The position numbers and the translations under genes were made by a program. The notes beneath the pieces are model-generated. The model worked only from the letters and a program-made list of their open reading frames with translations, did no database searches and was not told the origin of the DNA. Source: Eledone cirrhosa (taxonomy: Eukaryota). Taken from it: DNA of 64,000 bases. The stretch lies in the NCBI GenBank assembly GCA_964016885.1, contig OZ024740.1, forward strand, positions 258,044,001-258,108,000, read 5' to 3'. Positions 4,669 to 59,872 of this stretch are shown in pieces. Each line of letters starts with the position of its first letter. Within the stretch, counting starts at the first letter, position 1.

Positions 4669-4866
4669 AATAATAATGTGTTTCTACTATTGGCACAAGG
4701 CCAGCAAATACCCAGTACAATACTGGTACTTTATTTTATCGACCCCGTAAAGATGAAAGGCAAAGCTAACCTCGGCGGGATTTGAACTCAGAATGGCAAG
4801 GGCCATAACTCTATGAGTCAAATCATGGCGTCGGACCCTCTACCGATACTGCCAGTTCACCGCCCG
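4669..4866 (-). mobile_element. ~200-bp SINE, near full length
   Basis: Reverse complement reads GGGCGGTGAACTGGCAG...GAGTTCAAATCCCGCCGAGG (B-box-like)...GGCCTTGTGCCAATAGTAGAAACAC-(ATT)n; flanked by AAT repeats on both sides; a 3' fragment follows at 4886-4935 (+). Confidence 0.8.
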
Positions 4867-5312
4867 AATAATAATAATGATAATGTAACTGGGTAATTGC
4901 TGGCCTTGTGCCTAAAGTAGAAATAATTATTAATAATACTATTGTAATATTACTATTATTCGATATAAAACTCACGAATGTATTTGCGTATCCAGTATGT
5001 TAGAGCGAACACAAATTGTGTTTCTCATTTTGGAAAAGACAGCCAAGAAATCGTTCGGCATGTAAATTAGCCTAATCAGCCGAAATATACTTTAGAGAAT
5101 ACTATATATTCTCAAGAGTTCTAGTGAGTAGCATAAACGGAAAGATAGACAATCCTGATAAAAGGCATTAACCTTGAAACAATTGTCGCTTGTTTCTCTC
5201 TGCTACCACTAGAAAAACAAAAGGATGACGATTGTCGTCTAGAACACATGTATAATGAAGCTGTTTGCTTGCAAACTAATCGAATATTAATAATATTATT
5301 ATAATATTATTA

Positions 5313-5731
5313 CATTGAACTTTTTCAAATTTCATTTGAAAATGAAAATCAAGGTGGAGAGAGAAGTGTTCCCTTCCCAACAGTTTCGTGAAGATGGTTG
5401 AGAGAGGCGACAATGACCTAAGTGAATAGGCCTGCTCTGAGTATGTGACTGTAAATTGTACGTGGAAAAGTATGAGAGGGCATTCGCCCTGGTGGTCAGT
5501 GTCACTGGCTTTTTTGCGGGATTTCTCCACGAGTGACCCTTGTAGATCACCCCGACTATTGGTGAATTTTCCTTTCTTTTAATTTTTTTTTGTTACATTA
5601 TTTGTTTTTGTTTTTACACACAGAAATGCCTATTTCTACCGTCATGTGTTGTCCTTAATGTTATGTTTGTGTCAACCCCAGGGGTTAATAAAGAAAGCAT
5701 TATTATTATTATCATTATTATTATTATCATT
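5313..5731 (+). mobile_element. 5'-truncated 3' fragment of Tx1-like LINE
   Basis: Similar to 18730-19164 (TTTTTCAAATTTCATTTGAAAA..., 3' UTR hairpins); AATAAA at 5687; (ATT)n tail 5699-5731. Confidence 0.85.
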
Positions 5732-6914: not shown

Positions 6915-8625
6915 TTGGCGGACGTCTAGTGCAACTGGCAACAGGACGGGAGAATTCCCATCTCTGTGAGCCGAGAAGCGGTGGCGCTGCTGAGAAAGTA
7001 TCCGAACAAAGGGGATAACATAGATAATTTTAGGCCCATAACTCTGCTAAACACAGAGTTCAAAATTTTGGCCAAGGTGCTAGCAAAGAGGTTGGCGCCT
7101 GTCGTTGATGGTCTGGTGGGAGAGGCGCATACATGCGCCATTCCAGACAGATCCATGCACCACAACCTACACCTCATGCGATACATCGTGGAGAGGGTAG
7201 CTTAGGAACCTGGCACGGGTGAGTCCTTGATCAATTTAGATCAGTCGAAAGCTTTCGATAGGGTCGGCCATCTTTATCTGGCGACAGTCCTGAGGGCGGC
7301 TGGCTTTGGGCCCGTCTTCAGAGGCTGGATCGCTGCCATGCACAGCGACATCTGCTCTGTGGTGAGAGTTAACGGTCACCTTTCGGAACCGTTCAACATC
7401 ATGCGCTCGGTCCGCCAAGGATGTCTCCTCACGTCCCTCTTGTACGTATTGACTCTCGAGCCATTACTGCACAAACTAGGAAGATCCGTGTCAGCATATG
7501 CGGACGATGTCACCGCAGTGGTGTTGAACGCCAAACACATCGAGGCAATCGACGCTACACTAAGAGAATACGAAGCGATGACAGGAGCAATGATCTACCA
7601 GGAAAAGTCGGTGGGCCTGCAGCGCGGCACCTGGAGAGGCAGGTCCATGGCTGGACGGACGGACCGATTAAATTGCTAGGGGTCTGGTTCGTCCGGACAT
7701 CCAGATGGACAAAAACTGGGACGATGTGACGAGCAGGGTGGCTTCTCTCACCTAGAAATGGGCAGAGAGGAAGCTATCCCGTAAAAGTCGAGCGGAGGTG
7801 GCGAATGCGTACATCGCGTCCGTCATCTACTACCGCCTGACCGTCGTGCCTTGTCCTAAGCCCCACCTGACTGCGCTGGAACGTTTGCTTTTTCGCTTTT
7901 TGTGGAAGGGATGCGCTCCGATGGTCCGGTGGTCCATCTGCTGTCGACATCCGCTACGTGGAGGGCTGCGCATGCCCTGGCTGATGATGCGCAGACACGC
8001 GCTCAGGCTACGACATCTCCACCCTTTCCTCGACGGTGATCAGGTGTGGTCGCTGTTTGCTAGATGCGTCTTTCCACAGCTCGTCTCCTTGACGGAGCTG
8101 CAGCCATGGGTCAACCGAAGACCGAGAGGGAGCGCTTAGAGATTGGAATGTCTTCAGGCGCTCACAGCCCTCGAACAATCGGGCAATATGATTGGTGGAA
8201 ACCCCACCTTGGCGTTCTATAGAGGATTAGTGGAGGGGAAGAGCGACGACGTACTTGGCGAAACTCTAGGCGTCGACGAAAATCAACTAGAAGAACTTTC
8301 GAGCCGGGACCTATGGACAACTCCCAGAAATCCCTGGCCGAGGAGCTTTGCCAGTTCGGGAGAAACTCTACAGGCATGGAAATGCCGTCAATCGGGCATG
8401 TCCGAGATGCGCGCAGGGCGACCAAACCGTCCTGCATGCACTCGTCCAGTGTCCGAACATTGGTGACTTGTGGGTTTATGTCGAACACCTGCTGTCGCGT
8501 GTAGGACGGATCCGGATCATTATTTCTTTTTTTGTTACATCCTCTGTTTTTACTTTTTTACACGTAGAAATGTATTGTCCTTAATGTCTTACTTTGTGTA
8601 AACCGCTGTGGTTAATAAAGAAAAC
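6915..8625 (+). mobile_element. 5'-truncated, internally deleted Tx1-like LINE copy (ORF2 pseudogene)
   Basis: High identity to 16886-19130 with stops, frameshifts and deletions; NFRPITLLN, DQSKAFDRV, RQGC, YADD motifs; AATAAA at 8614. Confidence 0.92.
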
Positions 8626-8626
8626 A

Positions 8627-8694
8627 TACCAGTAATGCACTGGGTAATTGCTGGCCTTGTGCGAAAAGTAGAAACAATTATTATTATTATTATT
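8627..8694 (+). mobile_element. SINE 3' fragment with (ATT)n tail
   Basis: TACCAGTAATGCACTGGGTAATTGCTGGCCTTGTGCGAAAAGTAGAAACA-(ATT)6 matches the 3' ends of the other SINE copies. Confidence 0.8.
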
Positions 8695-11600
8695 GAAGGT
8701 GAAGCCACGCTTCTTATCGCCTCCAGTTGTTTTCCACGTTTTACCTCGTTTTCAAGCATTCTAAACCTTTTATTCAAGTTTTAAACTTGATAAAAGATTA
8801 GAAGTGACCCACCTAATACAGGAGTTCACTCGCATATAATACGTCACCCCTTTACGGGGTGTCGTATTATGTAAAAATAATATTTGAAAACAAATTTCTT
8901 TCAACATGGATAACACAAGAAAGATAGAGAGAGCGCTGTCAGACACACAGAGAGAGGGAGACTTTGTCAGCATATCAACAAGACAGCGTTCCAGCGAAGG
9001 TAAATATAAAAGAAAATATTACGAAGGAAAAGAGGCAGAATATCATTTTTAATGATATTGTTACAGATTTAAAATTACCAAATATTTCTAACACAAACAA
9101 CACCAACAATAACACCAACAACAACACCATCAATAACAATAGCAACAACAAAAATAACAGCGGTAAGGTCGAGAACGACAATAACAATGACATTAACAAC
9201 AGCAACAACAACAATAATAGTAGGAACAGTATCAACAAAAACAACAATAATAAAAACAGCCACAATAACAGTAACAACAGCAACAGTATCAACGAAAACA
9301 ACAACGACAACAGCAACAACAGTACCAACGAAAACATCAACAATGACATCGATACCTGTAACAGCAATCTCAGCACCACCAGCAAGACCAGTAGCGGCAG
9401 CAATAGTGGTACCACTGAAAAAGAACCACTTCTTTTGCAGGTGTGGCCCGAAATATAGAAAACAGTGCTAGTCACAGAGGAGGAGATGGTAGTCGCAAGG
9501 GCCATGGTGACAAGAAACGCCAATAGAATTTCCCTGAAACCTCCACCCGATTTTTTCAAGGACCAGCAGCTACGGACGGTGACTTACCGCACCGTAACCA
9601 AAATGTCACATCGGGTGGAGAGAGCAACGGAGGCTCAAATCCAAAAGGCCTTGGGGTGCGTCTGGGCGCACAAAACCCACATCACCCGAGGCAGAAAGTA
9701 CGCCACAGTAGACGTACTTTTCGCCACACCCAAGAAGCGAATTCTCACTCTTTGGAAACCCTAAAGAGTGAGGAGATAGTCCTACTGCCGGCAGAAAATT
9801 GTGAGGGCCAAAGTGACGCAGGTCCCACCCGACGTGCCCATACCTTGGCTGGCCGCGTCTGTCCTTGCTGGAATCGAGGACAGGACGACCATGCTGCAAG
9901 TAGAGAAAATAGGGAGAGAGAACTCGTCAGGTATAGGCATGCAAATGCTTATACAAACTGACCAGGAATGTATCGACGCTATCCCCAATATCATAGACCT
10001 CGAGGAAGGACTCCAACTCGCTATAAGCGTGGAAGGAAGACGGCCAAAATCTTATCTCTGTTTATCAAAGGGTCACCTCAGGGCCTTTTGCGCGCAGAAG
10101 ACAGCGAAGAAGAAGACCCCTCTCCTTCCTATACCTGGTCCGCTGCTACCAATAGCAGAGCAAGAAACAAAGGCAGAAGCCCCTTCCACGGTGAGTAGGA
10201 GGGCAACGTCCGTGGCACCTGTACCAAGGCAACGGACAATTAAAGCACCAACATCAGTGGCGGCAACACCAGCAGCTACATTTGCAGTAGCTGCACCAGC
10301 AACAAAGTCGTCGGAGAGGGAACCACTACCACCACCATCACTATCACCACCACAAGCATCACTACCAAGGAAACTTGCAGCAACACCACCACCATCACCA
10401 TCACACCACAAGCACCACCGCCAACAACAACCAGACCACCACCAGCATCACCAAAAACACCAACAACGAAAATAAAACAAAACACACACACCCAACAGCA
10501 ACAACGAGAAAACAGCAACAAAATCGCCCCTCCCCCCAAAACGTATACAGCCATAAACGTGGCAAATGAAGAACTCCTACAACACATAAAGCAGCACACA
10601 GACATCACAAAAAAATCTACTACACTCCCACCAACACCAAGAACTCTCCCGACAAACATAAGCATCATTGAAATCTCAATAGAACATTACAAACGTTTAA
10701 AGCAAAAAATCCCCAACGCAGAATAGGCAGTATAAATGTACGTGGCCTCGGGTCATCTTGGAAGCAGGTCCACCTGGTTAACGATTTCAGGTCACCAAAC
10801 ATAGATGTGGTGGCCATCAGATAGACCAGAATTTCCGAAGCACGAGCCTTCGCACAGATCTTCGGCGGCTACGATGTATACGTATCTCCCAGCCGTCCAG
10901 GATCGGGGGAAAGGGTTGTTGTGCTTTTTCGGAGAGGCTTTGATCTCGCCATAAATGCCATCTTTCTGGACCCAGAAGGTAGAGCGGTGGTGCTGGACAT
11001 GACCGGGAGCGAAGGCACTCGACCAATTCTTCAACGCAAAACATGAAGGCTGCGTTGTCAGAGCAAGAGCGCGTGCTCTAAGACACGAGGGGACGAAAGC
11101 CGTTCAATGGGCCTGGTTGGTGGAGGCGCGACGGGGCAACAAATCCACAATTCGGTCTTTGCCTGATCAAAACGGGCGCATGTTGCTCGAACCCGAGCAG
11201 ATGTGTGCGGCTTTTAAACAGCACTTTGCTCAATTGTTCGGGAGCGGCGGCGGGCACGATCGGAGTATGGACTTCGGTGCATACCTCGACGGACTGCGCG
11301 GCTCTCGTCGACCGCAGCGCAGTGCTGGTAAAGCCGATAACAGCAGGTGAAATACGGGGCGCGATGTCTGACTGCACGAGGGGTAAATCGCCTGGTTAAG
11401 ATGGTCTACTCTACGAGCTTTATGCGTACATGCCAGACTTGTTAGGTGACCTCTTGGCAGATGTCTACTGCAACTGGCAGCAAAACGGGAGCATTCCCAG
11501 ATTTGTGAGCTGGGGATCGGTGGCGCTGCTGAGAAAAGACCCGACGTTATAGACAACTTCAGGCCCATAACCCTGCTAAACGCAGAGTTTAATATTTTGG

Positions 11601-13104
11601 CCAAGGTGTTAGCAAATAGATTGCCGTTTATCGTCGTTGATCTGGTGGGAGAGGGGCAGACATGCGCCATTCCGGACAGATCAATCCACGACGCATCTCA
11701 TGCGATACATCATAGAGAGTGTGGTTAAGGAACCTAGTATGGGTGGGTCCCTGATCAACTTGGTTCAATATAAAGCATTTTATAGGGTCGACCATCGGTA
11801 CCTGGCTGCGGTCCTCGATGCGGCCGGCTTCGGGTCCGTTTTTAGGGATTGGATCGCCCAACTCTGACCAACAAGGAGCACCTTCTCTTCCGCTTTTTGT
11901 GGAAGGGACGTGCTACCATGGTCAGACGATCCATTTGCTGTCAACACCCGTTGCGTGGAGAAATGGGCATGCCGTGGCTCATGATGCGCAAACATCCGCT
12001 GAGGCTGCGACATCTCTGGTGCTTCCTTGACGGTGAACAGGCGTGATCGCCGTTTGCCAGGCGCGCTTCCCCCACCTCGTCTCCTTGACGGAGCTGCAGG
12101 AAAAGACCCTGGGATAGCGCTTGGAAGCTGGAATGTCTCCAAGCACTCACCGCCCTGTACCAGCTGGGCACTAGTATCGGTGGAACATCCACCTCGGCGT
12201 TCTATAGAGGGCTAGTGGAGGGAAAGAGCGACGACGTTCTCGGGGAGACCCTGGGTGTCGAAGATGACAGCTGTTCGCTCGCTTCAAGAGAACTTTCAGA
12301 CCGGGGTCTATGGACAACTTCCAGAAATCCCTTGCCTGGCAGTGCTACCTGGGAGCGTTGCCGGTTCGGAGTAACCTCTACAGGCGTGGAGGTGCTGTCA
12401 GCCGAGCCTGTCCGAGATGCGCGCAGGGCGACGAAACCGTGCTGCACGCACTCGTTCAGTGCCCGAGGATTGCTGACTTGTGGAGCTATGTCGAACAGCT
12501 GCCGTCGCGTGTAGGACGGATCCGGTTATCGACTGACTCCATTGTGCAGATAGCCCCGCCATCCTCCTTTAAAGGGGAGGAAAGGCAGGCAGTTTTCATC
12601 TGCCTGGTGGCCATGGCGAAAGAGATTGTGTGGTGGACAAGGTTGAAATGGTTGAAGACGGACACTTTCCTCTCCGGCCAATCCCTGATTAACTCTTTCA
12701 AGTTTCACTTGAAGAGGGTGGAGAGGCAAGTACTGTCTTCTAGTAAGTTTGTTGAAAGGTGGGTGAAAGTGGCGAGTCTGGTCCGAGTGAACGGACCCGA
12801 TCGGAGTATGCGCCTGTAGACTGAGGAGTGGGAAAACTGAGAGAGGGCGCTTGCCCTGGTGGTCAGGGTGGCCGTGGTCTTTTGTGTGGTTTTCGCCACG
12901 AGCGACCCTCGGAAGTTTCCCCCCTTTGGGGGAATTTTTCGTTGTTTTAATTTTTTTTTATATTTCTATCTTGTTATAACCTTTTTACACGGACAAACCC
13001 CACTTTGTATTGTCCTGTACCGTTCTATGCCATCTGTAATGTTTTTCTTTATGTTAGCCTTTGTGGCCAATAAAGAAACCATTATCATTATTATTATTAT
13101 TATT
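8695..13104 (+). mobile_element. Degenerate Tx1-like LINE retaining both ends (related subfamily; broken ORF1 and ORF2, large internal deletions)
   Basis: ORF1 pieces 8964-10475 homologous to 13320-15416 (TVTYRTV, RATEAQIQKALG, ISVEGRRPK); ORF2 pieces 10720-12819; AATAAA at ~13069 and (ATT)n tail to 13104. Confidence 0.9.
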
Positions 13105-13319
13105 GAATGCCATGGTTGACGGAGGCTCGGCTCTGTAAGGTATAGTAATTTTTAACCGTTAAAACAATTGTAAATTGTTTAAAACTTGAACCAAATTGTT
13201 GATAAAGACACCCTCCTCCTCGTGAGAGGGGTCTTTCTGTCCGTTATTTGGCCCTTCGGGGTGAAATAACCAGTTATTGGGGTTTTGTACCCAAAATTTC
13301 ATTTTAAACAAAAAACAAC

Positions 13320-15416
13320 ATGGCTACAAAAAAGAAATTTCATATGTCACTCCCACTCATTCCGTCTTCTTCTTCCTCAATCATCACTACAGCAGAGAGA
13401 AGATTGTCTCTCTCCCTCCCTTCTTTAAATGTGTCTCTCTCCCTCCCTTCTCTTTCGCAAGCGACGAAAGAAAAGAAAAGTCTCGTGCAAAGCGTGCAAG
13501 GTTTCTCCACGACGACGACGACAGCGACGAAACAGGTGTGCGGGAAACACGAAAACCCAGTTCATTCGTCTGACGTCAGGAATAATAGCAGTAGCAGCCG
13601 TAATAACAACAGCAACAGTGACAATGAAAACAACAGTAGCAGCCGCAACAGCATCACCAGCAGCATAAACAACAACAGCATTAGCAGCAGCAACACCAAC
13701 AACAACCACAGCAACAGCGGCGGAGGCAGTAGTCGTAGTACCTGCAGCAACAACAAAAGTACCAGCAGCTCTGACGACAACAACAACAGCAGAGAAAAAC
13801 CAATCTCATTTGCAGGTATTGCGAAAAATTTGGAAACAATCCTCATAACAAATGAGGAATTAGAGGAAGCGAAGAAGATGGTGACAAAGAACGGACACCG
13901 AGCAATCTGCAAGGCAGCGAAAAGTTTTTTCGAAACCCAAGAGCACTGTACGGTCACGTACCGTACAGTAAGTACAAAATCCCGTAGGGTGGAAAGAGCC
14001 ACAGAGGCCCAAATACAAAAAGCCTTGGGGTCTGTGTGGCAGAGGAAAACGCACATCACCCGAGGCAAAAAATACGCCACCGTAGACGTACTTTTTGCCA
14101 CACCCCAGGAGGCAAAGGCCCAATCAGTAATGACCCTAAGGAGCGAGGAAATGGTGTTGGTGCCCTCCTACTGCGGGCAAAAAATTGTGAGGGTCAAACT
14201 GACCCACGTCCCCCCCGGAATGACCCCTTCTTGGCTGGCCGCGTCTGTCCTCGTCGGAATCGAGGACAAAACAACTGTACTGCAAGTACAGAAAAAAGTA
14301 AGAGAAGATTGGGTCGGCTCCTCCATTGAGATGCTAATCCAAACCAACCAGGAGTGCATCGAAGCTATCCCGGATGTGATAGACTTCGATAACGGCACTC
14401 AACTGCCCATAAGTGTTGAGGGCAAACGCCCGAAATGCTTTCGCTGTGGATCGAAGACTCACCTCAGGGCCTTCTGCAACGAGAAGACCCTGAGAAAGGA
14501 GAAAACCCCCCTCCTTCCGAATCCGGCTCCACGGCTACCAGCAACAGGACAAGCGGCAACCAGGAACGATAGGTCCGTGGCACCCATACCCACTCCACGG
14601 AAATCAAAGACAGCAGCAGCAGTGGAAATATTAACAACAACAACAGCAATACCAAATGCAGCTGCAACAGAGACTCCAGTGCAAACATCACCAACAACAA
14701 CAAGTGAAAGAGTGGAGCTGGTACCCCTCCCCGACCTTACAGAATCAGACATGGAGTGTGAGGTGGGAGAGGGATGGCAAAAGGTCGCAAGAAGGCACAA
14801 ACGCAGAAGCAGCGCATCGTCGCCTTTGAAAAGGGAGGAAAGAAATGAGAAAAGGGTAAAGTCTACTGCAAAGAGACCCACAGCAGCAACACCACCAACA
14901 CCATCACCACCCACACCAGCACCACCATCACCACCGGCGACAACCCCACCGCCAACAACACCTTCAACACCACCACCACAAGCACCAACATCGCAAACAC
15001 AACAACAAAACACACACACCCAGCAACAACGACAAGAAAATAGCAGAACCACACCCCACCCCCAGAAAAACAAATGCACGGCAATAAACACACACAACAA
15101 GAAACTAATGACTTACATAATTGAACACACAGACATTTCACAACAGGACTACATAATACCAGCACCAATCAAAACGCCAACTAACATAAGACTGCTAAAA
15201 ATAGCACAGAAACAATACACAAACATTAAAACGAAATTCCCCAACGCAGTTGGTGATTTCAGGGACCTAGGAGGAACCATCAATCGAAGAGTATATTCAG
15301 ACATTCTCTTAGAAGAGCCGACGACCAGCCGAAGGGACGATTCAACGGTCCCTTCACCAGACGATCAAGTGAAAAGGGATGTAAAAACCATCCCTCCTCT
15401 ACCAAAAGTACGGTAA
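13320..15416 (+). CDS. LINE ORF1 protein (nucleic-acid-binding, gag-like CCHC knuckle)
   Basis: 698 aa open frame directly upstream of ORF2; CX2CX4HX4C knuckle CFRCGSKTHLRAFC; Asn/Ser-rich N-terminus; Pro/Thr/Gln-rich C-terminus; basic RRHKRR patch. Confidence 0.88.
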   Translation: MATKKKFHMSLPLIPSSSSSIITTAERRLSLSLPSLNVSLSLPSLSQATKEKKSLVQSVQGFSTTTTTATKQVCGKHENPVHSSDVRNNSSSSRNNNSNSDNENNSSSRNSITSSINNNSISSSNTNNNHSNSGGGSSRSTCSNNKSTSSSDDNNNSREKPISFAGIAKNLETILITNEELEEAKKMVTKNGHRAICKAAKSFFETQEHCTVTYRTVSTKSRRVERATEAQIQKALGSVWQRKTHITRGKKYATVDVLFATPQEAKAQSVMTLRSEEMVLVPSYCGQKIVRVKLTHVPPGMTPSWLAASVLVGIEDKTTVLQVQKKVREDWVGSSIEMLIQTNQECIEAIPDVIDFDNGTQLPISVEGKRPKCFRCGSKTHLRAFCNEKTLRKEKTPLLPNPAPRLPATGQAATRNDRSVAPIPTPRKSKTAAAVEILTTTTAIPNAAATETPVQTSPTTTSERVELVPLPDLTESDMECEVGEGWQKVARRHKRRSSASSPLKREERNEKRVKSTAKRPTAATPPTPSPPTPAPPSPPATTPPPTTPSTPPPQAPTSQTQQQNTHTQQQRQENSRTTPHPQKNKCTAINTHNKKLMTYIIEHTDISQQDYIIPAPIKTPTNIRLLKIAQKQYTNIKTKFPNAVGDFRDLGGTINRRVYSDILLEEPTTSRRDDSTVPSPDDQVKRDVKTIPPLPKVR

Positions 15417-15451
15417 GTGGTCTTTCCCATCTTTTCCACTCTATTTTAAAC

Positions 15452-18400
15452 ATGACCTCACTCAGAATAGGCAGCATAAATGCGCGTGGCTTGGGGTCGT
15501 CATGGAAGCAGGGTCACCTGCTCAACGACCTCAGGTCACTAAACATAGATGTAGTGGCCATCAGCGAGACCAGAATCTCCGAAGCACGGGCCTTCGCACC
15601 GATCTTCGGCGGCTACGATGTGTACGCATCTCCCAGCCGTCCTGGATCGGGTGGAGGAGTTGCTGTGCTTTTTCGGAGAGGTTTGGATCTCGCCATACGG
15701 GCCATCTTCCTGGACCCAGAGGGTAAGCTGGTGGTGCTGGACGTGACCAGCGGAGACGGGCAAGCTTTCAGGCTAGTGGCCGTCTATGCCCCGACAGGAG
15801 CAGGGCGGCCTGATTTCTTCCGGCGTCTGGAGACCTTTCTTGGAACGTCCCGCTCTTTAGTGTTAGTGGGCGACTGGAACGGGATCTTAGATGCACGCTG
15901 GGACTGTGTGGGATTAGCGGATAGGGGTGGAGGGTGCAAGAGCCTCACCAACCTGCTCAGGCGTTTTGAACTGTCTGACAGGTACCGATTGGATTTCCCG
16001 AATGTGCCAATGTGGACTTGGACAAACCGCATAGGGTCATCCAGATCATATCTAGATAGAGTATTTTGTAGGGAAATAGATAGGTCTAGCATAGGCTGTC
16101 CACAATTCAAGATAGTCAGCTACACGGACCACAAATTTGTGATCTGTGTGCTTGACTTAGATAGGCTTCATAGACGAGGACCCGGCTACTGGAAGCTAAA
16201 CGCGTCCTTACCAGCGCGCAAGGCCTACAGAGACCGGATTAGCGAACTAGTTAAGCGGGCGTTGACGGGGGCCATCGTCAACAACAAGTGGTGGTTTGCT
16301 CTGAAAAGAGCGATTAGAATAGAATCGATTAGGTTTAGTAAGGCTTTAGCAATAGAGAAAAATAGAGCAGAGGGAGAACTAGTTAGAAAATTAGACGAGG
16401 CGCTTAGCAAAGGCATTGCGACCGACGTGCTTGCGGCGAAATTGGCCCTTGACCAATTCTTCAATGCAAAGCACGAAGGCTGCGTTGTCAGAGCTAGGGT
16501 GCGTGCTCTCAGACACGAGGGGACGAAAGCCGTTCAATGGGCCCGAGTGGCGGAGGCGCGTCGTGGCAACAAAGCCACGATCCGGTCTTTGGTGGACCAC
16601 GACGGGCGCATGCTACTCGATCCCGGGCAAATGTGTGAAGCTTTTCAGCAACACTTCGCTCAGCTGTTCGGGGGCAGCGGGGGGCCGGGTAGAGGGATGG
16701 ACTTTAGTGTCTACCTCGACGGACTGCCGCGGCTCTCGGCCACTGAGGCGAAGTGTTGCGAAAAGCCGATAACAGCCGCTGAAGTAAGGGAGGCGATGAC
16801 TGGCTGCACAAGGGGCAAATCGCCTGGTTTGGATGGTCTGCCCTATGAACTTTACGTACAGATGCCAGACTTGTTCGGAGGCCTCTTGGCGGACGTCTAC
16901 TGCAACTGGCAACAGAACGGGAGAATTCCCAGTTCTGTGAGCCGAGGAGCGGTGGCACTGCTGAGAAAGGATCCGAACAAGGGGGATAACATAGACAATT
17001 TCCGGCCCATAACTCTGCTAAACACAGAGTTTAAGATTTTGGCCAAGGTGCTAGCAAAGAGGTTGGCGCTTGTCGTTGGTGGTCTGGTGGGAGAGGCGCA
17101 GACATGCGCCATTCCCGACAGATCCATCCACGACAACCTCCACCTCATGCGATACATCGTAGAGAGGGTAGCTAGGGAACCTGGCACGGGTGGGTCCTTG
17201 ATCAATTTAGATCAGTCGAAAGCTTTCGATAGGGTCGACCATCGTTACCTAGCGGCAGTCCTGAGGGCGGCTGGCTTTGGGCCCGTCTTCAGAGGCTGGA
17301 TCGCTGCCATGCACAGCGACATCTGCTCTGTGGTGAGAGTGAACGGTCACCTGTCGGAACCGTTCAACATCATGCGCTCGGTCCGCCAAGGATGTCCCCT
17401 CTCGTCCCTCTTGTACGTATTGACTCTCGAGCCATTACTGCACAAACTGGAGACGTTGAGGGGAGTCCCGCGCGAACTAGGATGCGGAAGATCCGTGTCA
17501 GCATATGCGGACGATGTCACCGTAGTGGTGTCGAACGCCAAACACATCGAGGCGATCGGCACTACACTAAGAGAATACGAAGCGGTGACAGGAGCAATGA
17601 TCAACCAGGAAAAGTCAGTGGGCCTGCAGCTCGGCACCTGGAGAGGCAGGTCCATGCCGTCCAACAGCGTCGTCGGGCGCTGGACGGACGGACCGGTTAA
17701 ATTGCTAGGGGTCTGGTTCGGTCCGGACCTCCAGACGGACAAAAACTGGGACGAGGTGACGAGCAGGGTGGCTTCTCTCACCCAGAAATGGGCGGAGAGG
17801 AAGCTATCCCTGAAAGGTCGAGCGGAGGTGGCTAACGCGTACATCGCGTCTGTCATCTGCTACCGCCTAACCGTCGTACCTTGTCCTAAGCCTCGCCTGA
17901 CTGCGCTGGAGCGTTTGCTCTTTCGCTTTTTGTGGAAGGGACGTGCTCCGATGGTCAGGCGGTCCATCTGTTGTCAACACCCGCTACGTGGAGGGCTGGG
18001 CATGCCGTGGCTGATGATGCGCAGGCACGCGCTCAGGCTACGACATCTCCACCTCTTCCTCGACGGTGATCAGGTGTGGTCGCCGTTTGCTAGACGCGTT
18101 TTTCCCCAGCTCGTTTCCTTGACGGAGCTGCAGTCCTGGGTCAAGCGAAGACCGAGAGGGAGCGCCTGGAGACTGGAATGTCTTCAGGCGCTCACAGCCC
18201 TCGACCAATCGGGCAATGTGATCGGTGGAAACTCCACCTCGGCGTTCTATAGAGGATTAGTGGAGGGGAAGAGCGACGACGTACTTGGGGAAACTCTAGG
18301 CGTCGACGAAAATCAACTAGCCAATCTCTTCGGAAGAACTTTCGGGCCAGGGCCTATGGACAACTTCCAGAAATCTCTGGCCTGGCAGTGCTACCGAGGA

Positions 18401-18871
18401 GCCTTGCCAGTTCGGGATAAACTCTACAGGCATGGAGGTGCCGTCAGCCGGGCATGTCCGAGATGCGCGCAGGGCGACGAAACCGTCCTGCACGCACTCG
18501 TCCAGTGTCCGAAAATTGCTGACTTGTGGGTTTATGTCGAACACCTGCTGTCGCGTTTAGGACGGATCCAGCTATCATCTGAGTCTATCGTGAGGATTGC
18601 CCCGCCCTCCTCCTTTAGCCGGGAAGGGCAGGCAGTTTTTATCTGTCTGGTGGCCATGGCGAAAGAGATAGTATGGTGGACACGTTTGAAAGGGCTGAAG
18701 ACGAGCACTTACCTCTTCGGTGATGCTCTGATTGACTTTTTCAAATTTCATTTGAAAAGGAAAATCAGAGTAGAGAAGGAAGTGCTCTCTTCCCAGCATT
18801 TTGTTGAAAGATGGGTGAGAGAAGCAAGAATGGCCCGAGTGAATGGGCCGACTCTGAGTATATATCTGTAA
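15452..18871 (+). CDS. LINE ORF2: APE endonuclease + reverse transcriptase + C-terminal CCHC finger (Tx1-like)
   Basis: 1139 aa; APE motifs SINARG, ISET, VYAP, GDWN, YLDR, TDH; GPGYWKLN; RT motifs KSPGLDGLP, NFRPITLLN, DQSKAFDRV, RQGCPLS, AYADD; CPRCAQGDETVLHALVQC. Confidence 0.97.
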   Translation: MTSLRIGSINARGLGSSWKQGHLLNDLRSLNIDVVAISETRISEARAFAPIFGGYDVYASPSRPGSGGGVAVLFRRGLDLAIRAIFLDPEGKLVVLDVTSGDGQAFRLVAVYAPTGAGRPDFFRRLETFLGTSRSLVLVGDWNGILDARWDCVGLADRGGGCKSLTNLLRRFELSDRYRLDFPNVPMWTWTNRIGSSRSYLDRVFCREIDRSSIGCPQFKIVSYTDHKFVICVLDLDRLHRRGPGYWKLNASLPARKAYRDRISELVKRALTGAIVNNKWWFALKRAIRIESIRFSKALAIEKNRAEGELVRKLDEALSKGIATDVLAAKLALDQFFNAKHEGCVVRARVRALRHEGTKAVQWARVAEARRGNKATIRSLVDHDGRMLLDPGQMCEAFQQHFAQLFGGSGGPGRGMDFSVYLDGLPRLSATEAKCCEKPITAAEVREAMTGCTRGKSPGLDGLPYELYVQMPDLFGGLLADVYCNWQQNGRIPSSVSRGAVALLRKDPNKGDNIDNFRPITLLNTEFKILAKVLAKRLALVVGGLVGEAQTCAIPDRSIHDNLHLMRYIVERVAREPGTGGSLINLDQSKAFDRVDHRYLAAVLRAAGFGPVFRGWIAAMHSDICSVVRVNGHLSEPFNIMRSVRQGCPLSSLLYVLTLEPLLHKLETLRGVPRELGCGRSVSAYADDVTVVVSNAKHIEAIGTTLREYEAVTGAMINQEKSVGLQLGTWRGRSMPSNSVVGRWTDGPVKLLGVWFGPDLQTDKNWDEVTSRVASLTQKWAERKLSLKGRAEVANAYIASVICYRLTVVPCPKPRLTALERLLFRFLWKGRAPMVRRSICCQHPLRGGLGMPWLMMRRHALRLRHLHLFLDGDQVWSPFARRVFPQLVSLTELQSWVKRRPRGSAWRLECLQALTALDQSGNVIGGNSTSAFYRGLVEGKSDDVLGETLGVDENQLANLFGRTFGPGPMDNFQKSLAWQCYRGALPVRDKLYRHGGAVSRACPRCAQGDETVLHALVQCPKIADLWVYVEHLLSRLGRIQLSSESIVRIAPPSSFSREGQAVFICLVAMAKEIVWWTRLKGLKTSTYLFGDALIDFFKFHLKRKIRVEKEVLSSQHFVERWVREARMARVNGPTLSIYL

Positions 18872-19132
18872 ACTAAAGGTGGAAAACTGGGAGAGGGCAC
18901 TTGCCTTGGTGGTCAGGGTCATTGTGGCTTTTTACTGGGCTTTCTCCACAAATGTCCCTCCGAAGTTTCCCCCCTATTGGGGAATTTTTTCATTGTTATT
19001 TTCATTGTTATTTTTGTTACATCCTCTGTTTTTGTCTTTTTACACGCAGAAATGCCCATTTGTACCGTCCTGCATTGTCCTGCACTGTCCTTAATGTCTA
19101 CTTTATGTAAACCCTTGTGGTTAATAAAGAAA

Positions 19133-19164
<32 letters not shown>

Positions 19165-19165
<1 letters not shown>

Positions 19166-22100
19166 CTGTTGGTGCTGATGTTATTGGGGAAGTGTTTGCG
19201 TTAATGGTGTCTGTGTTTTTTGTTGTGTACGTCTTTGTGATTTGTTGGGGCTTTTTTTTTGGGGGGGGGGGGGATCTATGTATTTTTTGTACTTTTGGGT
19301 TTTCCTTCATCTTTGCTGCTGGAAGACAAAGTGTCTGTGTCTGTGTGTGCGTTTATTGTTTTATCTATGTGTATAATTAGCGGGGTAGGGGGAGTGGGAG
19401 AGCTTTCCTCGTTTTCCCCTTGGATTGGTTTCGGTGTTGGTGGTGGTCCAGCAACATCGACACCACCCCCACAATCCCCGAAACGCAAACACAAGTACAA
19501 ATAAACACACAAATACCTGAAATTGCAGACACCACACCTACAACAAACACAGACATACCCGAAACAATATAACCAATACCATCACCACCACAGTCACCAA
19601 AACGAAAACAAATAAAACCACACCAATAAAATGTTAAAATTTCGCGCTTGTCAGAAGGGCCAACGATAAACCGATGGCCCTCTTAGCACGAAGAGAGGAC
19701 ATTCAAACAGAGGGGAGATCTTTGAAATGAGCACATTTTGCGTGCCAGAAGATTTGCTTCTGGTCCGAATGTCACTCGATTCTTTCAAAGAAATTCGGGA
19801 GAGCTTTCCTCAAGACTTCGGAACCCCGAATGTGAAACCCACATCGAGACTTTTAAAGGGGTTCCCAAAAGAAACCCCAACAAGCATGGAGGTCAAACCA
19901 CCCAACCTTCACAAGATCCCGGGAGGTAAGTAGACCTCCCTTCTCTCTTTTAGCTTGCCAACATGGCCATATTAAGAGTGGGAAGTTTAAATGTTCGTGG
20001 CCTGGGGTCATCCTGGAAGCATGGTCACCTGCTCAACGACCTCAGGTCACTGGAAATGGATGCGATTGCCGTCAGCGAGACCAGAATTTTCGACACGCGT
20101 GCACTAGCCCCCATTTTCGACGACTATCAGATCTCCGCATCTGTTAGCAGACCGCGAATGGGAGGTGGGTGGCAGTGCTGTTTAGGAAAGGACTGGATCT
20201 GGAGGAAAGGTCGATTTTCCTGGACCCGGACGGTGAGTTCGTGGTCTTGGATGTGAGCAGTAGCGAAGGTGGTGCCTTTAGACTGCGGGCCGTCTACGCC
20301 CCTACAGGGGCCGGACGACCGGATTTCTTTAGACGCCTGGAGACTTTTCTGTGTACGTCTCGCTCTTTACTGTTAGCGGGGGACTGGAACGGCATTTTAG
20401 ACGCACACTGGGATTGTGTGGGAGTAGCTGATAAGAGCGGAGAGTGCAAAAGCCTCAAGCACATAATCAGCAGGTTCCAACTGTCTGACAAGTATCGACT
20501 AGATTTCCCCAATGCGCCAGTGTGGACATGGACCAACCGCATGGTGTCATCTAGATTGTATATAGACAGGATCTTCATTAGGAAAATAGATAGAAATAGT
20601 GTAGGCTGCACACTTTTTAAAACGGTCGCTTATTCAGATCAAAAATTTGTGATCTCTATGATCGACCTAGATAAAACGAGTAGGTTGGGACTGGGTTATT
20701 GGAAGCTGAACATGTCATTTCCAGCACGTAAGGCTTACAGGGACCGAGTCAACAATTTAGTTATGCAAAAGTTGACAGGGGGGATCATCAACAACAGATG
20801 GTGGGGGGCTCTTAAAAGAGAGATTAGAATAACTTCGATAGAGTTCAGCAAAGAGCTAGCGTTAGCGAAAAATAGAAAGGAGGGGGAGCTGGTAGATTAG
20901 TTAGACGAGGCTATTTGTAGTGGCATAGCAACTGACGTGCTAGCGGCGAGAATGGCATTATACCATTTCTTCAATGCGAAACACGAAAGTTGCATTGTCA
21001 GAACTAAGGCGTGTACGCTGAGAAAAGAGGGAACCAAAGCTGTTCGATGGGCCCGCGTGGTGGAGGCGCAGCGTGGTAACAAAACCACAATTCGGTCTTT
21101 GGCGGACCGAGACGGACACGAGATAAGCGATTCCAAGCGGATGCGTGAGTCCTTTCGCCAGCACTTTGCTCGGTTGTTCGGGGAGAGGGGCGAGTCAGAG
21201 AGAGAGAGGCGGATTTCAGTCCCTACTTTGACAGCTTGCCGCGCATCTCGAAGGTCGACGCTGAGCGCTGCGAAAGGCCGATTACTTCAGCCGAAATTCA
21301 GGACGCCCTTGTCGGCTACGTGAGGCGCAAGTCACCCGATTCGGATGGCCTGCCCTACGAGCTTTACGTAAATATGCCAGATTTGTTCTCCGATCTCCTC
21401 GAATCATTCTACTGCAACTGGCAGCAGAATGGGAGTATTCCCAGTGTTGTGAGCAGGAGAGTGGTGACGCTGATCAGGAAAGACGAGAACAAGAGGGATA
21501 CATTAGACAACTTCAGGCCCGTAACTCTGCTCAACACAGAGTTTAAGATTTTGGCCAAGGTGTTAGCAAAGAGATTGGCGCTTGTCGTCAAGGGTGCCCT
21601 CTATCTTCCCTTCTGTACATATTGACTCTCGAGCCTTTACTGCGGAAGCTGAAGCTGTTGCAGGACATCCCGCTCGAACCGGGACGTGGAAAGGTGGTGT
21701 CGGCTTATGCGGACTACATCACCGCGATGGTGTCGGAAACCTCAGAAATCGAGGTGGTCGGCACCTTATTGCAGGAATATGAAAGGTTGACAGGAGCCAA
21801 ACTTAACCAGGAAAAGTCGGTGGGCTTGCAGCTCGGAACCTGGAGAGGCAAGCCTATGCCGTCCAACAGCGTCATGGGGAGCTGAACGTACGGACCGGCA
21901 AAGTAGCTCGATGTTTGGTTTGGACCAGTCCTCCAGGTGAAAAAGAATTGGGACGAGGTAACGAGCAGGGTAGCCAGTCTCACCCAAAAATGGGCTGGGA
22001 GGAAGCTATCACTGAAAGGACGCGCGGAGATGGCGAATACGTACATCGTGTCCGTCATCTACTACCGCCTGACCGTCGTGCCTTGCCCCTGTCAGCGCCT

Positions 22101-23359
22101 CGTCAAGTTGGAACGGCTCCTCTTCAAATTCTTGTGGAGGGGACAAGTTTCGTTGGTGAAGCGGTCCATCTGTTGCCAGCAACCTCTACGCGGAGGGCTG
22201 AGCATGCCGTAGCTAATGATGCGCAGACATGCGCTGAGGCTGCGACATCTCCAGCTATTCTGCCTAAACGGTGAACAGGTGTGGTCGCCGTTTATCAGAC
22301 GGGCCTTTCCGCAGCTCGTTTCTTTGACTGAGCTGCAGTCCCGGGTCAAGAAGAGACCGAGACTGGGTACTGACACCTGGAATGTTGTCAGGCACTCACT
22401 GCCCTCTTCCAAGCATGCAATGCGATCAGTGGAACTGCCACTCTCGAGTTCTATAGAGGATTAGTGGTGGGCAAGTGCGATGACGCACTCGGAGAAACTT
22501 TGGGCCTCGACGAAGTCGAACTGACCAGTCTGTACCGGAGGACTTTAGAGCTGGGGACGATGGACAATTTCCAGAAATCCCTCGCTTGGCAGTGCTACCG
22601 GGGTGGGGGAGGGCACTGCCGGTTCGGGATAAACTCTACAGGCACGGAAGTGCTGTCAGACGGACCTGCCCATGATGCGCACAGAACGACGAAAGCATTA
22701 TGCACGCACTTGTCCAATGTCCGTGCATTACTGACTTATGGAGATATGTCGAACAGCTACTGTCGCATGTGGAACGAATCCGGCTATCGGCCGAGTCCAT
22801 AGTGAAGATCGACCGCCGCCTTCCTTAGGTCAGGAAGAGCAGGACATTTTCCTCTGTCTGGTGGCCGTTGCGAAAGAGGTTATATGGTGGACCAGATTAA
22901 AAGGACTGAAGACAAACACTTTTCTCATCGGCCAATCCCTCATCAACTTCTTCAAGTTTCACCCGGAAAGGAAGGTGAGGGTGGAGAGAGAAGTGATGCC
23001 TCGCAGTACATTTGCTAAAAGGTGGATGAATGTGGCGAGAATGGCCCGTGTGAATGGGCCTACTCTGACCCTGCGCCTATAGGCTAGCTAACTTGAGAGG
23101 AGGGGTGCTCTCCCTGGGTGATCTAGAAGTGCAGGGTGGTTCAGGATTGGTGGGGTACCTGAGTCACCCAAGGGTCGTCCACCCCTTATCGGGGAATTTA
23201 TTTGTTATATTTATGCATAATTTATTTTATATTTTTCATATTTTCATTGTTAAATTAGTCTTGCCATTGTGCACTTTTACTCGACCTTATTGTAAATCCC
23301 CACTGTCACTGTTTTTGTATTGTCCCCTACATGTCGGCCCTTGTGGCTAATAAATGAAA

Positions 23360-23421
<62 letters not shown>
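19165..23421 (+). mobile_element. Degenerate, more divergent Tx1-like LINE, 5'-truncated with a probable inverted 5' segment (19165-~19446)
   Basis: ORF2 remnants 19963-23082 (GSLNVRG, GDWN, GYWKLN, NFRPVTLLN, YADY); AATAAA 23349; (ATT)n 23362-23421 followed by (AGA)n. Confidence 0.9.
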
Positions 23422-23749: not shown

Positions 23750-23995
23750 ATATGATAGTGATCATAACGATGATGATGATAATGATGCTGATGATGGTGG
23801 TGAGGAGGGGGAGGAGGAGGAGGAGGAAGTGTAGGAAGTGGGGGAAGGGAAGGTTTATGATGATGTTGATGGTGATGATTTGGAGGACGAGAAGATAGAA
23901 GAGAATGAAAAGAAGCTGGAAGATGATATTGAAAATGATGAAGATGATGATGATGATGATGATGATAATGATGATGATGCGAAGAATGAAGATAA
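23750..23995. repeat. Compound (GAT)n/(GAG)n/(GAA)n microsatellite
   Basis: Direct reading of degenerate trinucleotide runs. Confidence 0.85.
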
Positions 23996-24160
23996 TAATT
24001 GTTTCTACTTTTGGCACAAGGCCAGCAATTAAATCAGTGTATTACTGGTACTTTATTTTATCGACCCCGTAAGGATGAAAGGCAAAGCTAACCTTGGCGG
24101 GATTTGAACTCAGACCATAAAGGGCCGTAACCCTTTTCTGCAAAGCATGGCGTCAGACCA
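23993..24160 (-). mobile_element. SINE copy
   Basis: AATAATTGTTTCTACTTTTGGCACAAGGCCAGCAATT...GGCGGGATTTGAACTCAG; near-identical to 4669-4866. Confidence 0.8.
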
Positions 24161-24409: not shown

Positions 24410-24569
24410 TAAATGGTCCCGCAATTCCCAAAGGAATCGTAGGGGCACCATATTGACATACCTCGTTTGTAGGGTAGATTTAAACCTAGCAGAGCCCATC
24501 CTTCTTAAGGTTTGAACGCACCAGATTTCTTCGAGAGAAATATAGAGGAAGAACCGGCCCCAGTCCTTG

Positions 24570-24712: not shown

Positions 24713-24715
24713 CTC

Positions 24716-24823
<108 letters not shown>

Positions 24824-27669: not shown

Positions 27670-28090
27670 AAGGGCGGGTGGATAGACAGTATCGGTAGAG
27701 CATTGGGAAAAGGATCTGTAGCATAAATATACGTTCTGAGATGAAATCTCGCCGAGGTTAGCTTTACCTTTCATGGATAATGTGAAGAATTGGTAAAGTA
27801 GAGGGATCAATTTAATTGACATTTCCCTCTCCCACAATTGTTGGCCTTGTGCCTAAATCAGAAACCATTATGCTGTCTCGAAGGACGGGTGAACTGGCAG
27901 TATCGGTAAAATGCTTTGCGGCATAGTTACGACCCTTTGCGTTCGGAGTTCAAATTCCGCCAAGTTTAGCTTGGCCTGTTATCCTTAGGAGTTCGATAAA
28001 ACAAAGCATTAGTAATGTACTGGGGTCAATTTAATTGACTTCCCATCCCCCAAAACCGTTGGCCTTTTGACTAAATCAGAGACCATTATT
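27670..28090 (+). mobile_element. Two tandem SINE copies (27670-27871, 27880-28090)
   Basis: Both start GAAGG.CGGGTG.A.. and end GGCCTT.TG.CTAAATCAGA.ACCATTAT; B-box-like GAGTTCAAATTCC in the second. Confidence 0.8.
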
Positions 28091-40884: not shown

Positions 40885-41067
40885 AACTGCAGCATTGGCA
40901 CTATCGGTAGAACGTTAGACCATGCTTTACAGCATAGAGTTATGCCTCTTTGCATTCTCAGTTCAAATCCCGCCGAGGTTAATTTATCTTTCATTCTATA
41001 GGGGTCGATAAAATAAAGTAGTAGTAATGCACTGGGTAATTGCTAGCCTTGTATCAAACATAGAAAC

Positions 41068-41072
<5 letters not shown>
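40885..41072 (+). mobile_element. SINE copy (~200-bp family)
   Basis: AGTTCAAATCCCGCCGAGG...GGGTAATTGCTAGCCTTGTATCAAACATAGAAACAATT. Confidence 0.8.
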
Positions 41073-41108
<36 letters not shown>

Positions 41109-41847: not shown

Positions 41848-41907
41848 AGGGTATTATTACTAATAAGTGTTTTATGGAGGTACCTGGTCTTTCCACTATC
41901 TTAATAT

Positions 41908-50868: not shown

Positions 50869-51419
50869 CAAAATATGAGGAAATAATAGACAAAAATATA
50901 CCTATTTTTTCTTCAAAGTCCCGTGAGCTCTGACTCTACACTTTAAAAGTGCATCATCGCTGTGAGGTTGATACGGCCTTCAAGAGACCCCTCGGGAAAA
51001 ATGACTGTTCCTTAACGCGTTTAGAGCAAGTGAGAAAGTCTCATAGGCGGAGGGAAAGATTTACAAGTGATAGGTGGTAAAAAAAAGGGGATTGTTTCTT
51101 TCGTAGCAAGTGAGAATTTCTCGAGAGGCGAGGAGAGAGATAGACACATGATACAGTGGTCACAGAAGGGTAGTAAGGTGAACAGTGAGCGAATACCGTA
51201 TTTGCTAGAAAAAGCGTTAATACACTCATAGTTAACTCGACCATAGCAGAGTTTGGGACAATATAATAATTGTTTCTACTTTTGGCACAAGGCCAGCAAT
51301 TAACTAGTACATTACTGGTACTTTATTTTAACGACGTGTGCGCGTGCGTGTGTGTGTCTGTCTGTGTCTGTATATATATACACACACACACACATGTGTA
51401 TACATGATATACATAATCT

Positions 51420-54563: not shown

Positions 54564-54646
54564 AAACTAATACGAAATAATTGTTTCTACTTTAAGCACA
54601 AGGCCAGCAATTACCCAGTGCAAAACATAAACTAATACGAAATAAT
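54564..54646 (-). mobile_element. 5'-truncated SINE with 18-bp target-site duplication
   Basis: AAACTAATACGAAATAAT at 54564-54581 and 54629-54646 flank TGTTTCTACTTTAAGCACAAGGCCAGCAATTACCCAGTGCA. Confidence 0.75.
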
Positions 54647-59078: not shown

Positions 59079-59872
59079 GTATGTTTCTCTTTCTCTTAAT
59101 TTCGAGTATATTTTTTTGACCGGCCACCTTTCTGGTGGCAAGGTTATAAAAGAAAAGAAATTGTCATCCCTTGAATCGCACAAATATTTTGCAAATTTTG
59201 AAGGGGCTAGCTATCGCAGCCACATGTAATCTATGAATTAGGGAGCTGCGCTCTTTGTCTGCAAATCCAAGTTCAGTCATACTTTGGTCCAAGCGAGTTT
59301 GTATACTGTAACTCCAATAATTGTTTCTAGTTTTTGGCGCAAGGCCAGCAATTACCCAGTGCATTACTGGTGCTTTATTTTATCGACCCCATAAGAATGT
59401 AAGGCAAAGTTAAGCTCGGTAGGATTTGAACTCAGACCGTAAACGTCCGTATCTCCAACCTGTAAAGCATGGCGTCCTACTCTCTACCGATAATGCCAAT
59501 CTACCAATGATAATGGGTATAATAATAATAATGGGTATGAAACTGAAGGCGTATCTTGGATACTGGATCTGCAAACTCCTCATCAATGGTCCGTATATAT
59601 CCGCCTTCTGTATTTTTCTTACAACGTTGACATCAAATGGGCAGCTGATCTCTACGACGGAGCACCTTTTTAATGTGTGGTCCCAAACGACACTATCACA
59701 CCGGTTGTGCTTTAATTTGGTGGCAGTTTTTATTTTCAGGTTCCACCAGTATTCTTTAGTGCCATCTCAACATATTCCTCCTCATTTGTTTTTAATTTTG
59801 TATTCATTAGTGCGTTCCAGATGGTTCTAGTTATCACATCGTGTCTGATAGGGTAGTAGTAACGAGACGATA
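59077..59872 (-). mobile_element. 5'-truncated second copy of the R4/Dong-like element, interrupted by a SINE (59316-59505)
   Basis: 59084-59305 and 59525-59870 are homologous to 59883-60470; SINE sequence inserted at CTCCAATAAT. Confidence 0.85.

What the first reader, a model, noticed from the sequence alone, without database searches (positions are those of the whole stretch)
8627..8694. The high-copy SINE shares its 3' terminus and target with the Tx1-like LINE: candidate LINE-SINE pair
Seen: SINE ends GGCCTTGTGCCTAAATCAGAAACCATTAT (27843-27871) and GGCCTTGTGCGAAAAGTAGAAACA(ATT)6 (8653-8694); LINE ends GCCTTTGTGGCCAATAAAGAAACCATTAT (~13057-13085) and GGCCCTTGTGGCTAATAAATGAAATC(ATT)n (~23336-23421). 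Both fit CCTT(T)GTG-N10/11-GAAA-NN-(ATT)n. SINE insertions sit at AATAAT sites (4669/4867, 23993, 51264, 54564 with an 18-bp TSD, 59316). Known: SINEs borrow the 3' end of a partner LINE for recognition by its RT; described partners are mostly L2, CR1, RTE, I/Jockey or L1. Inference: the intact element at 13105-19164 may be the mobilising partner of this SINE.
Basis: partly seen in the sequence, partly recalled or inferred. Interest (0 to 1): 0.75.

Follow-up and report, generated by a model that had tools for sequence, protein, structure and literature searches.

The report
Octopod SINE borrows Tx1 LINE tail
A very abundant short jumping repeat in this likely octopod genome ends in the same 25-base signal, predicted to fold as a small RNA hairpin, and lands at the same ATTAT sites as a group of Tx1-like long retrotransposons, so that group likely copies it, a tail-sharing partnership I found in print for plant and algal relatives but not for animal ones.

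Summary
Confirmed with corrections. The SINE (~187 nt, roughly 270,000 short-tail copies) and the Tx1-like LINEs share a C-CTTGT-G loop with a 3-4 bp stem, 16-17 nt before ATT (spacer N9/10, not N10/11). SINE ends matched 9 of 10 Tx1-group ends (z 2.6-5.9) and none of 7 other element ends, including an ATT-tailed CR1. SINE insertions carry 10-20 bp duplications starting ATTAT (60 of 136 at 12 bp or more; control 30 of 674). ATTAT lies at the 5' junction of 19/30 young SINEs, 30/30 and 16/19 Tx1 copies, but 1/28 CR1 copies. The SINE has a young subfamily (5,842 copies within 2 mismatches), so ages overlap. The specific claim about element 13105-19164 is not supported: the quoted LINE ends belong to neighbouring families, the long-tail SINE fits sister families better, a second young family with long ORF2s exists, and full-length copies sit in long ATT arrays (28/30) whereas young SINEs do not (1/30). 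The hairpin is weak and recognition is untested. This scan reported the same pairing on other DNA of this genome.

The parts
8627..8694 (+). 5'-truncated SINE (last 50 nt, 8627-8676) plus (ATT)6, joined directly to the 3' end of a truncated Tx1-like copy
   Evidence: 98% to SINE positions 138-187
8651..8676 (+). SINE terminal signal: TGGC-CTTGT-GCGA stem-loop (one stem mutation in this copy), spacer, GAAACA
6915..8626 (+). truncated Tx1-like copy of an older A-lineage subfamily, ends AATAAAGAAAAC
8695..13104 (+). decayed Tx1-like copy, family C; end 13057-13085; 5' boundary inferred from the same sequence following ATT tails at three other loci
13105..19164 (+). intact Tx1-like LINE, family A: 5' UTR from 13105, ORF1, ORF2, 3' UTR, (ATT)10
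13320..15416 (+). ORF1, 698 aa, one CCHC knuckle at residue 373, no Pfam hit
15452..18871 (+). ORF2, 1139 aa: APE endonuclease, RT (YADD), zf-RVT
19108..19134 (+). LINE-A terminal signal AACC-CTTGT-GGTT, AATAAA, GAAATC
19960..23421 (+). decayed Tx1-like copy, family B, end GGCC-CTTGT-GGCT AATAAAT GAAATC (ATT)20
5314..5727 (+). short 3' fragment of a further Tx1-like copy (D)
27672..27871 (+). long-tail SINE subfamily copy (first of a tandem pair; second 27880-28088)
4669..4867 (-). full-length short-tail SINE between ATT repeats
23993..24159 (-). short-tail SINE, 5'-truncated
40894..41073 (+). short-tail SINE, diverged
51264..51335 (-). short-tail SINE 3' fragment
54564..54646 (-). short-tail SINE 3' fragment with 18-bp TSD starting ATTATT
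59316..59505 (-). short-tail SINE inserted at an ATTATT site inside an R4-like ORF

Best explanation
The SINE and a group of ATT-targeting Tx1-like LINEs share a 3' terminus and an ATTAT insertion motif, so ORF2 proteins of that group likely copy the SINE, probably by binding a predicted small hairpin 16-17 nt before the AUU repeats. Shown: shared C-CTTGT-G loop at a fixed distance from ATT, 10-20 bp SINE TSDs that start ATTAT, same polarity, overlapping ages. Inferred: a Pol III SINE RNA (A- and B-box-like motifs) ending ...GAAACA-AUUAUU is bound by Tx1 ORF2p; the endonuclease nicks the AATAAT strand, the RNA's AUUAUU pairs with the freed 3' end and primes reverse transcription, and a second nick about 15 bp away makes the TSD. 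The SINE keeps the loop and its spacing but not the LINE's AATAAA poly(A) signal. Its tail probably came from a B/C-type family (GGCC stem); which family moves today's copies is open, with A and the young B-type family as candidates.
For: Terminal similarity only to the Tx1 group among 17 element ends. Loop and stem kept across families with paired changes: pair 3 is A-T in A and G-C in B, C and the SINE; pair 2 is C-G in LINEs and G-C in the SINE; the first three pairs are intact in 87, 86, 84 of 88 LINE ends and 258, 261, 257 of 273 SINE ends picked by the loop motif. TSD of 12 bp or more in 60 of 136 SINE copies against 30 of 674 mismatched controls; 12 of 13 TSDs of the youngest copies begin ATTAT, median 15 bp; one Tx1-B copy has a 16-bp non-repeat TSD starting ATTAT (L271). 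ATTAT at the 5' junction: SINE 19/30, A 30/30, B 16/19, CR1 1/28, random 144/3000. Young SINEs (5,842 within 2 mismatches over 176 nt) coexist with young Tx1 families. SINEs directly follow Tx1 tails in 10 of 45 B-family and 4 of 45 A-family ends. One SINE copy ends in the last 13 nt of family B (L341).
Against: The shared stretch is only about 25 nt. The hairpin is thermodynamically unremarkable in SINE, A and B ends (z 0.88, 0.51, -0.46, 0.26; only C reaches -3.5), the fourth pair is broken in half the SINE ends (135 of 273 paired), and the covariation rests on about three independent events; the SINE/LINE difference can also be read as loss of one C-G pair. Full-length young Tx1 copies sit in long arrays (A 28/30 with four or more units; young B-type 4/4 resolved) while young SINEs do so at background rate (1/30; genome 48 of 2907 ATTAT sites). 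The same terminus is carried by sister families with ATCT tails, so it marks the lineage, not the ATT group. LINE TSD lengths are mostly unreadable inside repeats. Only the LINE families I sampled were compared.
Confidence: 0.78

Rival explanations
1. The intact family at 13105-19164 (A) is the specific and main partner.
For: Intact ORFs, 97.6-99.9% identical full-length copies; loop-to-ATT spacing of 16 nt equals the SINE's; raw score with the young short-tail SINE (19.5) is similar to B-type ends (18-26); older truncated A-lineage copies also occur at short ATT runs.
Against: Lowest z among intact-motif ATT families (2.8, 3.3); 28/30 in long arrays against 1/30 for the SINE; most SINE copies predate the young A burst; a second young family with long ORF2s exists.
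Confidence: 0.2
2. Tx1 ORF2p moves the SINE in a relaxed way through AUU pairing alone; the hairpin is a relic of how the SINE got its tail and is not recognised.
For: Weak folding; few independent compensatory changes; crocodilian SINEU is inferred to use Tx1 without a shared tail (PMC4494074).
Against: Loop, closing pair and spacing are kept in both SINE subfamilies and in all main Tx1 families while AATAAA and the sequence upstream are not.
Confidence: 0.25
3. An unsampled LINE family with a hexamer ATTATT target is the real partner.
For: Target stringency differs between the SINE and all full-length Tx1 copies seen; 44,775 zf-RVT candidates exist and only 150 were scored, 60 examined.
Against: A pattern joining the SINE stem to AATAAA found 3 places in the genome, all SINE copies; among recurring sequences before (ATT)3 runs in the loci held, only this SINE, Tx1, CR1, a Penelope-like end and reverse-strand Dong-like pieces appeared.
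Confidence: 0.12
4. The ATT-tailed CR1 family, or the Dong-like elements that share ATT arrays, mobilise the SINE.
For: The CR1 family is young (97-100% best identities) and ends in (ATT)n with its own hairpin; Dong elements target TAA repeats (PMC3812793).
Against: No tail similarity (z -0.6 to 0.1); CR1 has ATTAT at 1 of 28 5' junctions and no long TSD was seen by eye in the 28; Dong-like elements face the other way and end in (AAT)n.
Confidence: 0.04

Closest known systems
SINEU / Tx1-Mar of crocodilians (Kojima 2015, PMC4494074; abstract, passages and section 15 read)
   Same: An animal SINE inferred to be mobilised by target-preferring Tx1 families from shared targets and overlapping ages.
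   Different: SINEU has snRNA heads and poly(A) tails, and no LINE sharing the SINEU-1 3' terminus was found; here the head is tRNA-like, the tail is ATT and the terminus is shared.
Stringent L1-clade pairs: maize LINE1-1_ZM with ZmSINE2/3, Chlamydomonas L1-1_CR with SINEX-3_CR (PMC3747384; passages and part 1 of the tables section read)
   Same: L1-superfamily LINE and tRNA SINE share a 3' end with a hairpin whose loop is kept and whose stem varies.
   Different: Plants and algae, longer shared ends (45-80 nt), poly(A)/(T) tails; that survey's table lists no animal L1/Tx1 pair.
Kibi (TC)n, Koshi (TTC)n and crocodilian (TTCC)n/(TTTC)n Tx1 families (PMC4494074 section 15; PMC3812793 passages)
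   Same: APE-type Tx1 elements that insert into a microsatellite.
   Different: Target here is (ATT)n; the passages read name TAA repeats only for Dong, and name no SINE partner for Kibi or Koshi.
Stem-loop recognition by L2 ORF2p, ZfL2-1/ZfL2-2 (PMC4176376; abstract and section 20 read)
   Same: Model for general stem plus specific loop recognition.
   Different: L2 clade, shown by assay; here the stem is only 3-4 bp and binding is untested.

Membership tests
L1/Tx1 superfamily LINE | ORF2 with APE endonuclease, RT and C-terminal zinc motif; closer to L1 than to R2 | tested here: met
   Pfam Exo_endo_phos, RVT_1, zf-RVT; human L1 ORF2p 182 bits against R2 79 bits
Tx1 clade | ORF2 closer to Tx1 elements than to vertebrate L1 | tested here: met
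   260-326 bits to four fish proteins that their sources name 'transposon TX1' against 182 bits to human L1; names are automatic annotations
Tx1 clade | RT tree placement with curated Tx1 and L1 references | tested here: inconclusive
   Quick tree only, no curated references; window families form one clade (SH-aLRT 99) with an Argonauta protein, apart from CR1, RTE and Dong-like rows
Tx1 clade | ORF1 with CCHC knuckle rather than Transposase_22 | tested here: met
   One CX2CX4HX4C, no Pfam hit; PMC5203782 passages call such ORF1 consistent with Tx1
Tx1 clade | target preference | tested here: met
   30 of 30 full-length A copies follow ATT repeats; some are neighbours in one array
tRNA-derived SINE | short, non-coding, high copy, TSD-flanked | tested here: met
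   187 nt, 54 3'-complete copies in 600 kb, TSDs
tRNA-derived SINE | tRNA-derived head with A and B boxes | tested here: inconclusive
   A-box-like TGGCAGTATCGG and B-box GTTCAAATC found by pattern; ARAGORN 0 genes; no meaningful Rfam match
SINE superfamilies (CORE, Meta, Deu, Ceph) | conserved central domain | not tested
   No reference domain sequence was on hand; section 9 of PMC4824008 gives none in its text
Stringent SINE-LINE pair | shared 3'-terminal sequence | tested here: met
   about 25 nt only
Stringent SINE-LINE pair | conserved 3' stem-loop | tested here: inconclusive
   Covariation present but few events and weak energy
Stringent SINE-LINE pair | same target and TSD | tested here: inconclusive
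   Same ATTAT motif and polarity; array length differs; one readable LINE TSD of 16 bp
Stringent SINE-LINE pair | 3' tail needed for mobilisation by the partner ORF2p | not testable with these tools
   needs a cell assay

The most novel reading that the evidence does not exclude
An animal Tx1 lineage recognises its RNA stringently through a CUUGU-loop hairpin, and a tRNA-type SINE that captured this signal escaped the LINE's confinement to long ATT arrays by priming on a bare ATTATT hexamer, which would explain why it reached some 270,000 copies and would name the engine of the octopod SINE expansion.
Probability: 0.4. Interest if true: 0.72.

Novelty: new variant of a known kind. Interest (0 to 1): 0.52.

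Why it matters
SINE-LINE tail sharing is textbook, but the L1 superfamily is the exception: a survey found 3 L1-tailed SINEs among more than 800 L1-clade families, all in plants or algae (PMC3747384), and the one Tx1 case I found rests on target choice alone (PMC4494074). A tail-sharing Tx1 pair in an animal, with young intact LINEs and young SINEs, gives a direct test of whether stringent 3' recognition persists in animal L1/Tx1 proteins. It would also suggest which enzyme drove part of the SINE expansion reported for octopuses (SINEs 11.6% of the O. vulgaris genome, PMC13282606). The contrast in target stringency lets one separate endonuclease choice from RNA-DNA priming.

Tried and rejected
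DNA search with a near-master SINE copy returned no candidates because its words are too common; a pattern search answered instead. Pattern for a LINE with the SINE's exact stem plus AATAAA: 3 hits, all SINEs. ARAGORN and Rfam gave nothing for the head. Sequencing runs: no RNA holder listed; laying three contig runs gave nothing on expression and did not reach the tail. Automatic LINE 5'-junction calling was noisy: many rows were tandem stacks or ran off the reference, so the 19 B-family junctions were chosen by eye (8 of the 20 regions and 11 truncated copies). The careful RT tree did not finish. An R4-like element in the window was considered as ATT-tailed and rejected: it ends in (ACAT)n. 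Eight literature searches were answered and showed no octopod SINE-Tx1 pair; Repbase Reports, subscription journals and the original octopus SINE paper (Ohshima and Okada 1994, seen only as a reference) were not searchable, and no supplements were read; consensus annotations there may already note the pairing.

Full report
Setting. The window lies in a 3.0-Gb animal genome of 1796 contigs. The closest named relative of the LINE's ORF2 is an Argonauta hians protein (73% over the searched region), so an octopod host is likely; this is inference.

Observation. The four quoted ends and the cited insertion sites are in the sequence. The piece at 8627-8694 is the last 50 nt of the SINE plus (ATT)6, sitting between a truncated Tx1-like copy and the next one in a head-to-tail stack that runs from about 5314 to 23421. 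The spacer in the shared motif is 9-10 nt.

The SINE. Thirty genomic copies define a unit of about 187 nt; a second, older subfamily has a longer C-rich stretch before the same end. Sixty evenly spaced 10-kb stretches held 54 short-tail copies with a complete 3' end, about 270,000 genome-wide; 46 of them with at least 100 nt aligned are 82-99% identical to the majority sequence, median 92.5%, which mixes subfamilies. A young subfamily exists: 5,842 places match one copy over 176 nt with at most 2 mismatches, 33 exactly. A- and B-box-like motifs are present, but no tRNA or Rfam match was found.

The LINE. ORF1 (698 aa) has a CCHC knuckle and ORF2 (1139 aa) has APE, RT and zf-RVT domains. ORF2 scores 260-326 bits against four proteins named 'transposon TX1' by their sources and 182 against human L1 ORF2p. 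A quick RT tree of 62 rows puts families A, B, C and the ATCT-tailed sisters in one clade; it had no curated references. Twenty full-length A copies are 97.6-99.9% identical to the window copy. Family B averages 96.5% between 29 copies, and a further B-type family has four copies 98.8-99.4% alike with open frames of 1073-1150 aa.

Shared terminus. All these ends read stem-CTTGT-stem, a 6-7 nt A-rich spacer, GAAA plus two bases, then ATT. In 3'-anchored alignments of real copies against 150 dinucleotide shuffles each, two SINE ends matched nine Tx1-group ends: eight at z 2.6-5.9 and one diverged copy at z 0.8-1.2; seven other ends (CR1, two RTE, two Dong-like, R4-like, Penelope-like; labels partly from recalled protein motifs) gave z -0.9 to 0.8 (the table has 16 element rows). 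The long-tail SINE fits B and C ends (24-35.5) better than A (23); for the short-tail SINE the differences are small (18-26, A 19.5). The stem varies in pairs: AACC/GGTT in A, GGCC/GGCT in B, AGCC/GGCC in C, TGGC/GCC(A/T) in the SINE. Folding energy is not unusual except in C, and the covariation stands for about three events. The SINE keeps the loop and its distance to ATT but lacks AATAAA, as a Pol III transcript could (inference).

Footprint. SINE copies have duplications of 12 bp or more in 60 of 136 cases against 30 of 674 mismatched pairs (part of that listing was cut from view, the totals were not). Among the 30 youngest loci, 13 have an exact TSD of 10-24 bp (median 15; the two longest run into the SINE head), 12 begin ATTAT and none has added ATT units. 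ATTAT lies within 26 nt of the 5' junction in 19/30 young SINEs, 30/30 full-length A, 16/19 hand-picked B junctions, 1/28 CR1 and 144/3000 random places. The CR1 family is the best control because it is young and also ends in (ATT)n. Dong-like elements use the same arrays in the opposite direction. RTE families end in (TGAA)n or (TGAGTC)n. One B copy shows a 16-bp non-repeat TSD that starts ATTAT; the others sit in repeats and cannot be measured.

The mismatch. Four or more ATT units precede 28/30 full-length A copies (some are neighbours in one array), 9/19 B junctions and 4/4 resolved copies of the young B-type family, but only 1/30 young SINEs, near the genomic rate of 48 in 2907 ATTAT sites. 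So the motif and polarity agree but the stringency does not. A short AUUAUU end that primes on a hexamer, against a longer AUU run in LINE RNA, would explain it; this is untested, and an unsampled partner family is not excluded.

Mechanism. Most likely (0.78) the SINE RNA is taken up in trans by ORF2p of the ATT-targeting Tx1-like group and inserted by target-primed reverse transcription at ATTAT(T) sites. The sequence similarity, footprints and ages are shown; transcription, binding, nicking and priming are inferred from known LINE biology (PMC4176376 for stem-loop recognition in L2). The tail probably came from a B/C-like family. That family A alone is the partner is less likely (0.2).

Known relatives and novelty. 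SINEU/Tx1-Mar shares targets but no tail (PMC4494074; abstract, passages, section 15). L1-clade pairs with shared hairpin tails are listed only for maize, sorghum and Chlamydomonas (PMC3747384; passages, first part of the tables). Microsatellite-targeting Tx1 families are known for other repeats (PMC4494074, PMC3812793 passages). Passages of PMC4758252, PMC4824008 (also section 9), PMC13282606, PMC8967140, PMC10294476 and PMC5203782 name no partner for an octopod SINE. Eight searches found no such pair; Repbase and subscription papers were out of reach. The scan's own notes list the same pairing on other DNA of this genome (nothing nearby); my hairpin reading was noted before I saw them, and they are not independent support. 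Verdict: a real lineage-level SINE-LINE pair, a new variant of a known kind, interest 0.52. Correction to the summary's count: one search compared nine Tx1-group ends (eight matched) and seven others, 16 in all.

Noticed in passing
window 5314-23421: Head-to-tail stack of five Tx1-like copies from at least three families, each following an ATT run; tandem stacks recur genome-wide.
   Followed up: partly
L394-L398, L404-L407: A second young Tx1-like family with open ORF2 frames of 1073-1150 aa, its own 5' end, and short (ATT)5-6 3' runs; two of five copies are directly followed by a SINE.
   Followed up: partly
L341:1501-1523: A full SINE whose last 13 nt are those of LINE family B, possibly a template-switch chimera; one case.
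   Followed up: partly
window 8600-8640; L118, L257: SINE pieces joined to a Tx1 3' end with little or no ATT between them; either insertion with target deletion or template switching.
   Followed up: no
window 24450-24750 (-); several of 90 core hits in L171-L230: A SINE with the same central core but another tail (CT-rich, then GGAAGAAATC); partner unknown.
   Followed up: no
L223, L154: Sister Tx1-like families with nearly the same terminal hairpin and AATAAA but (ATCT)n tails.
   Followed up: partly
window 5728 onward; L034, L042, L080: At least two or three Dong-like families (label recalled) occupy the same ATT arrays in the opposite direction, ending in (AAT)n.
   Followed up: partly
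L281-L310: Young CR1-like family with (ATT)n tail and a stronger 3' hairpin, no ATT preference at the 5' junction.
   Followed up: yes
window 59077-63201 (-): R4-like RT element ending in (ACAT)n, with a tandem duplicate of its 3' part into which a SINE inserted at ATTATT.
   Followed up: partly
window 41109-45113: Inverted pair (91.8% over 1.65 kb) of a Penelope-like element around an RT ORF at 41908-43104; label from a recalled GIY-YIG-like motif.
   Followed up: no
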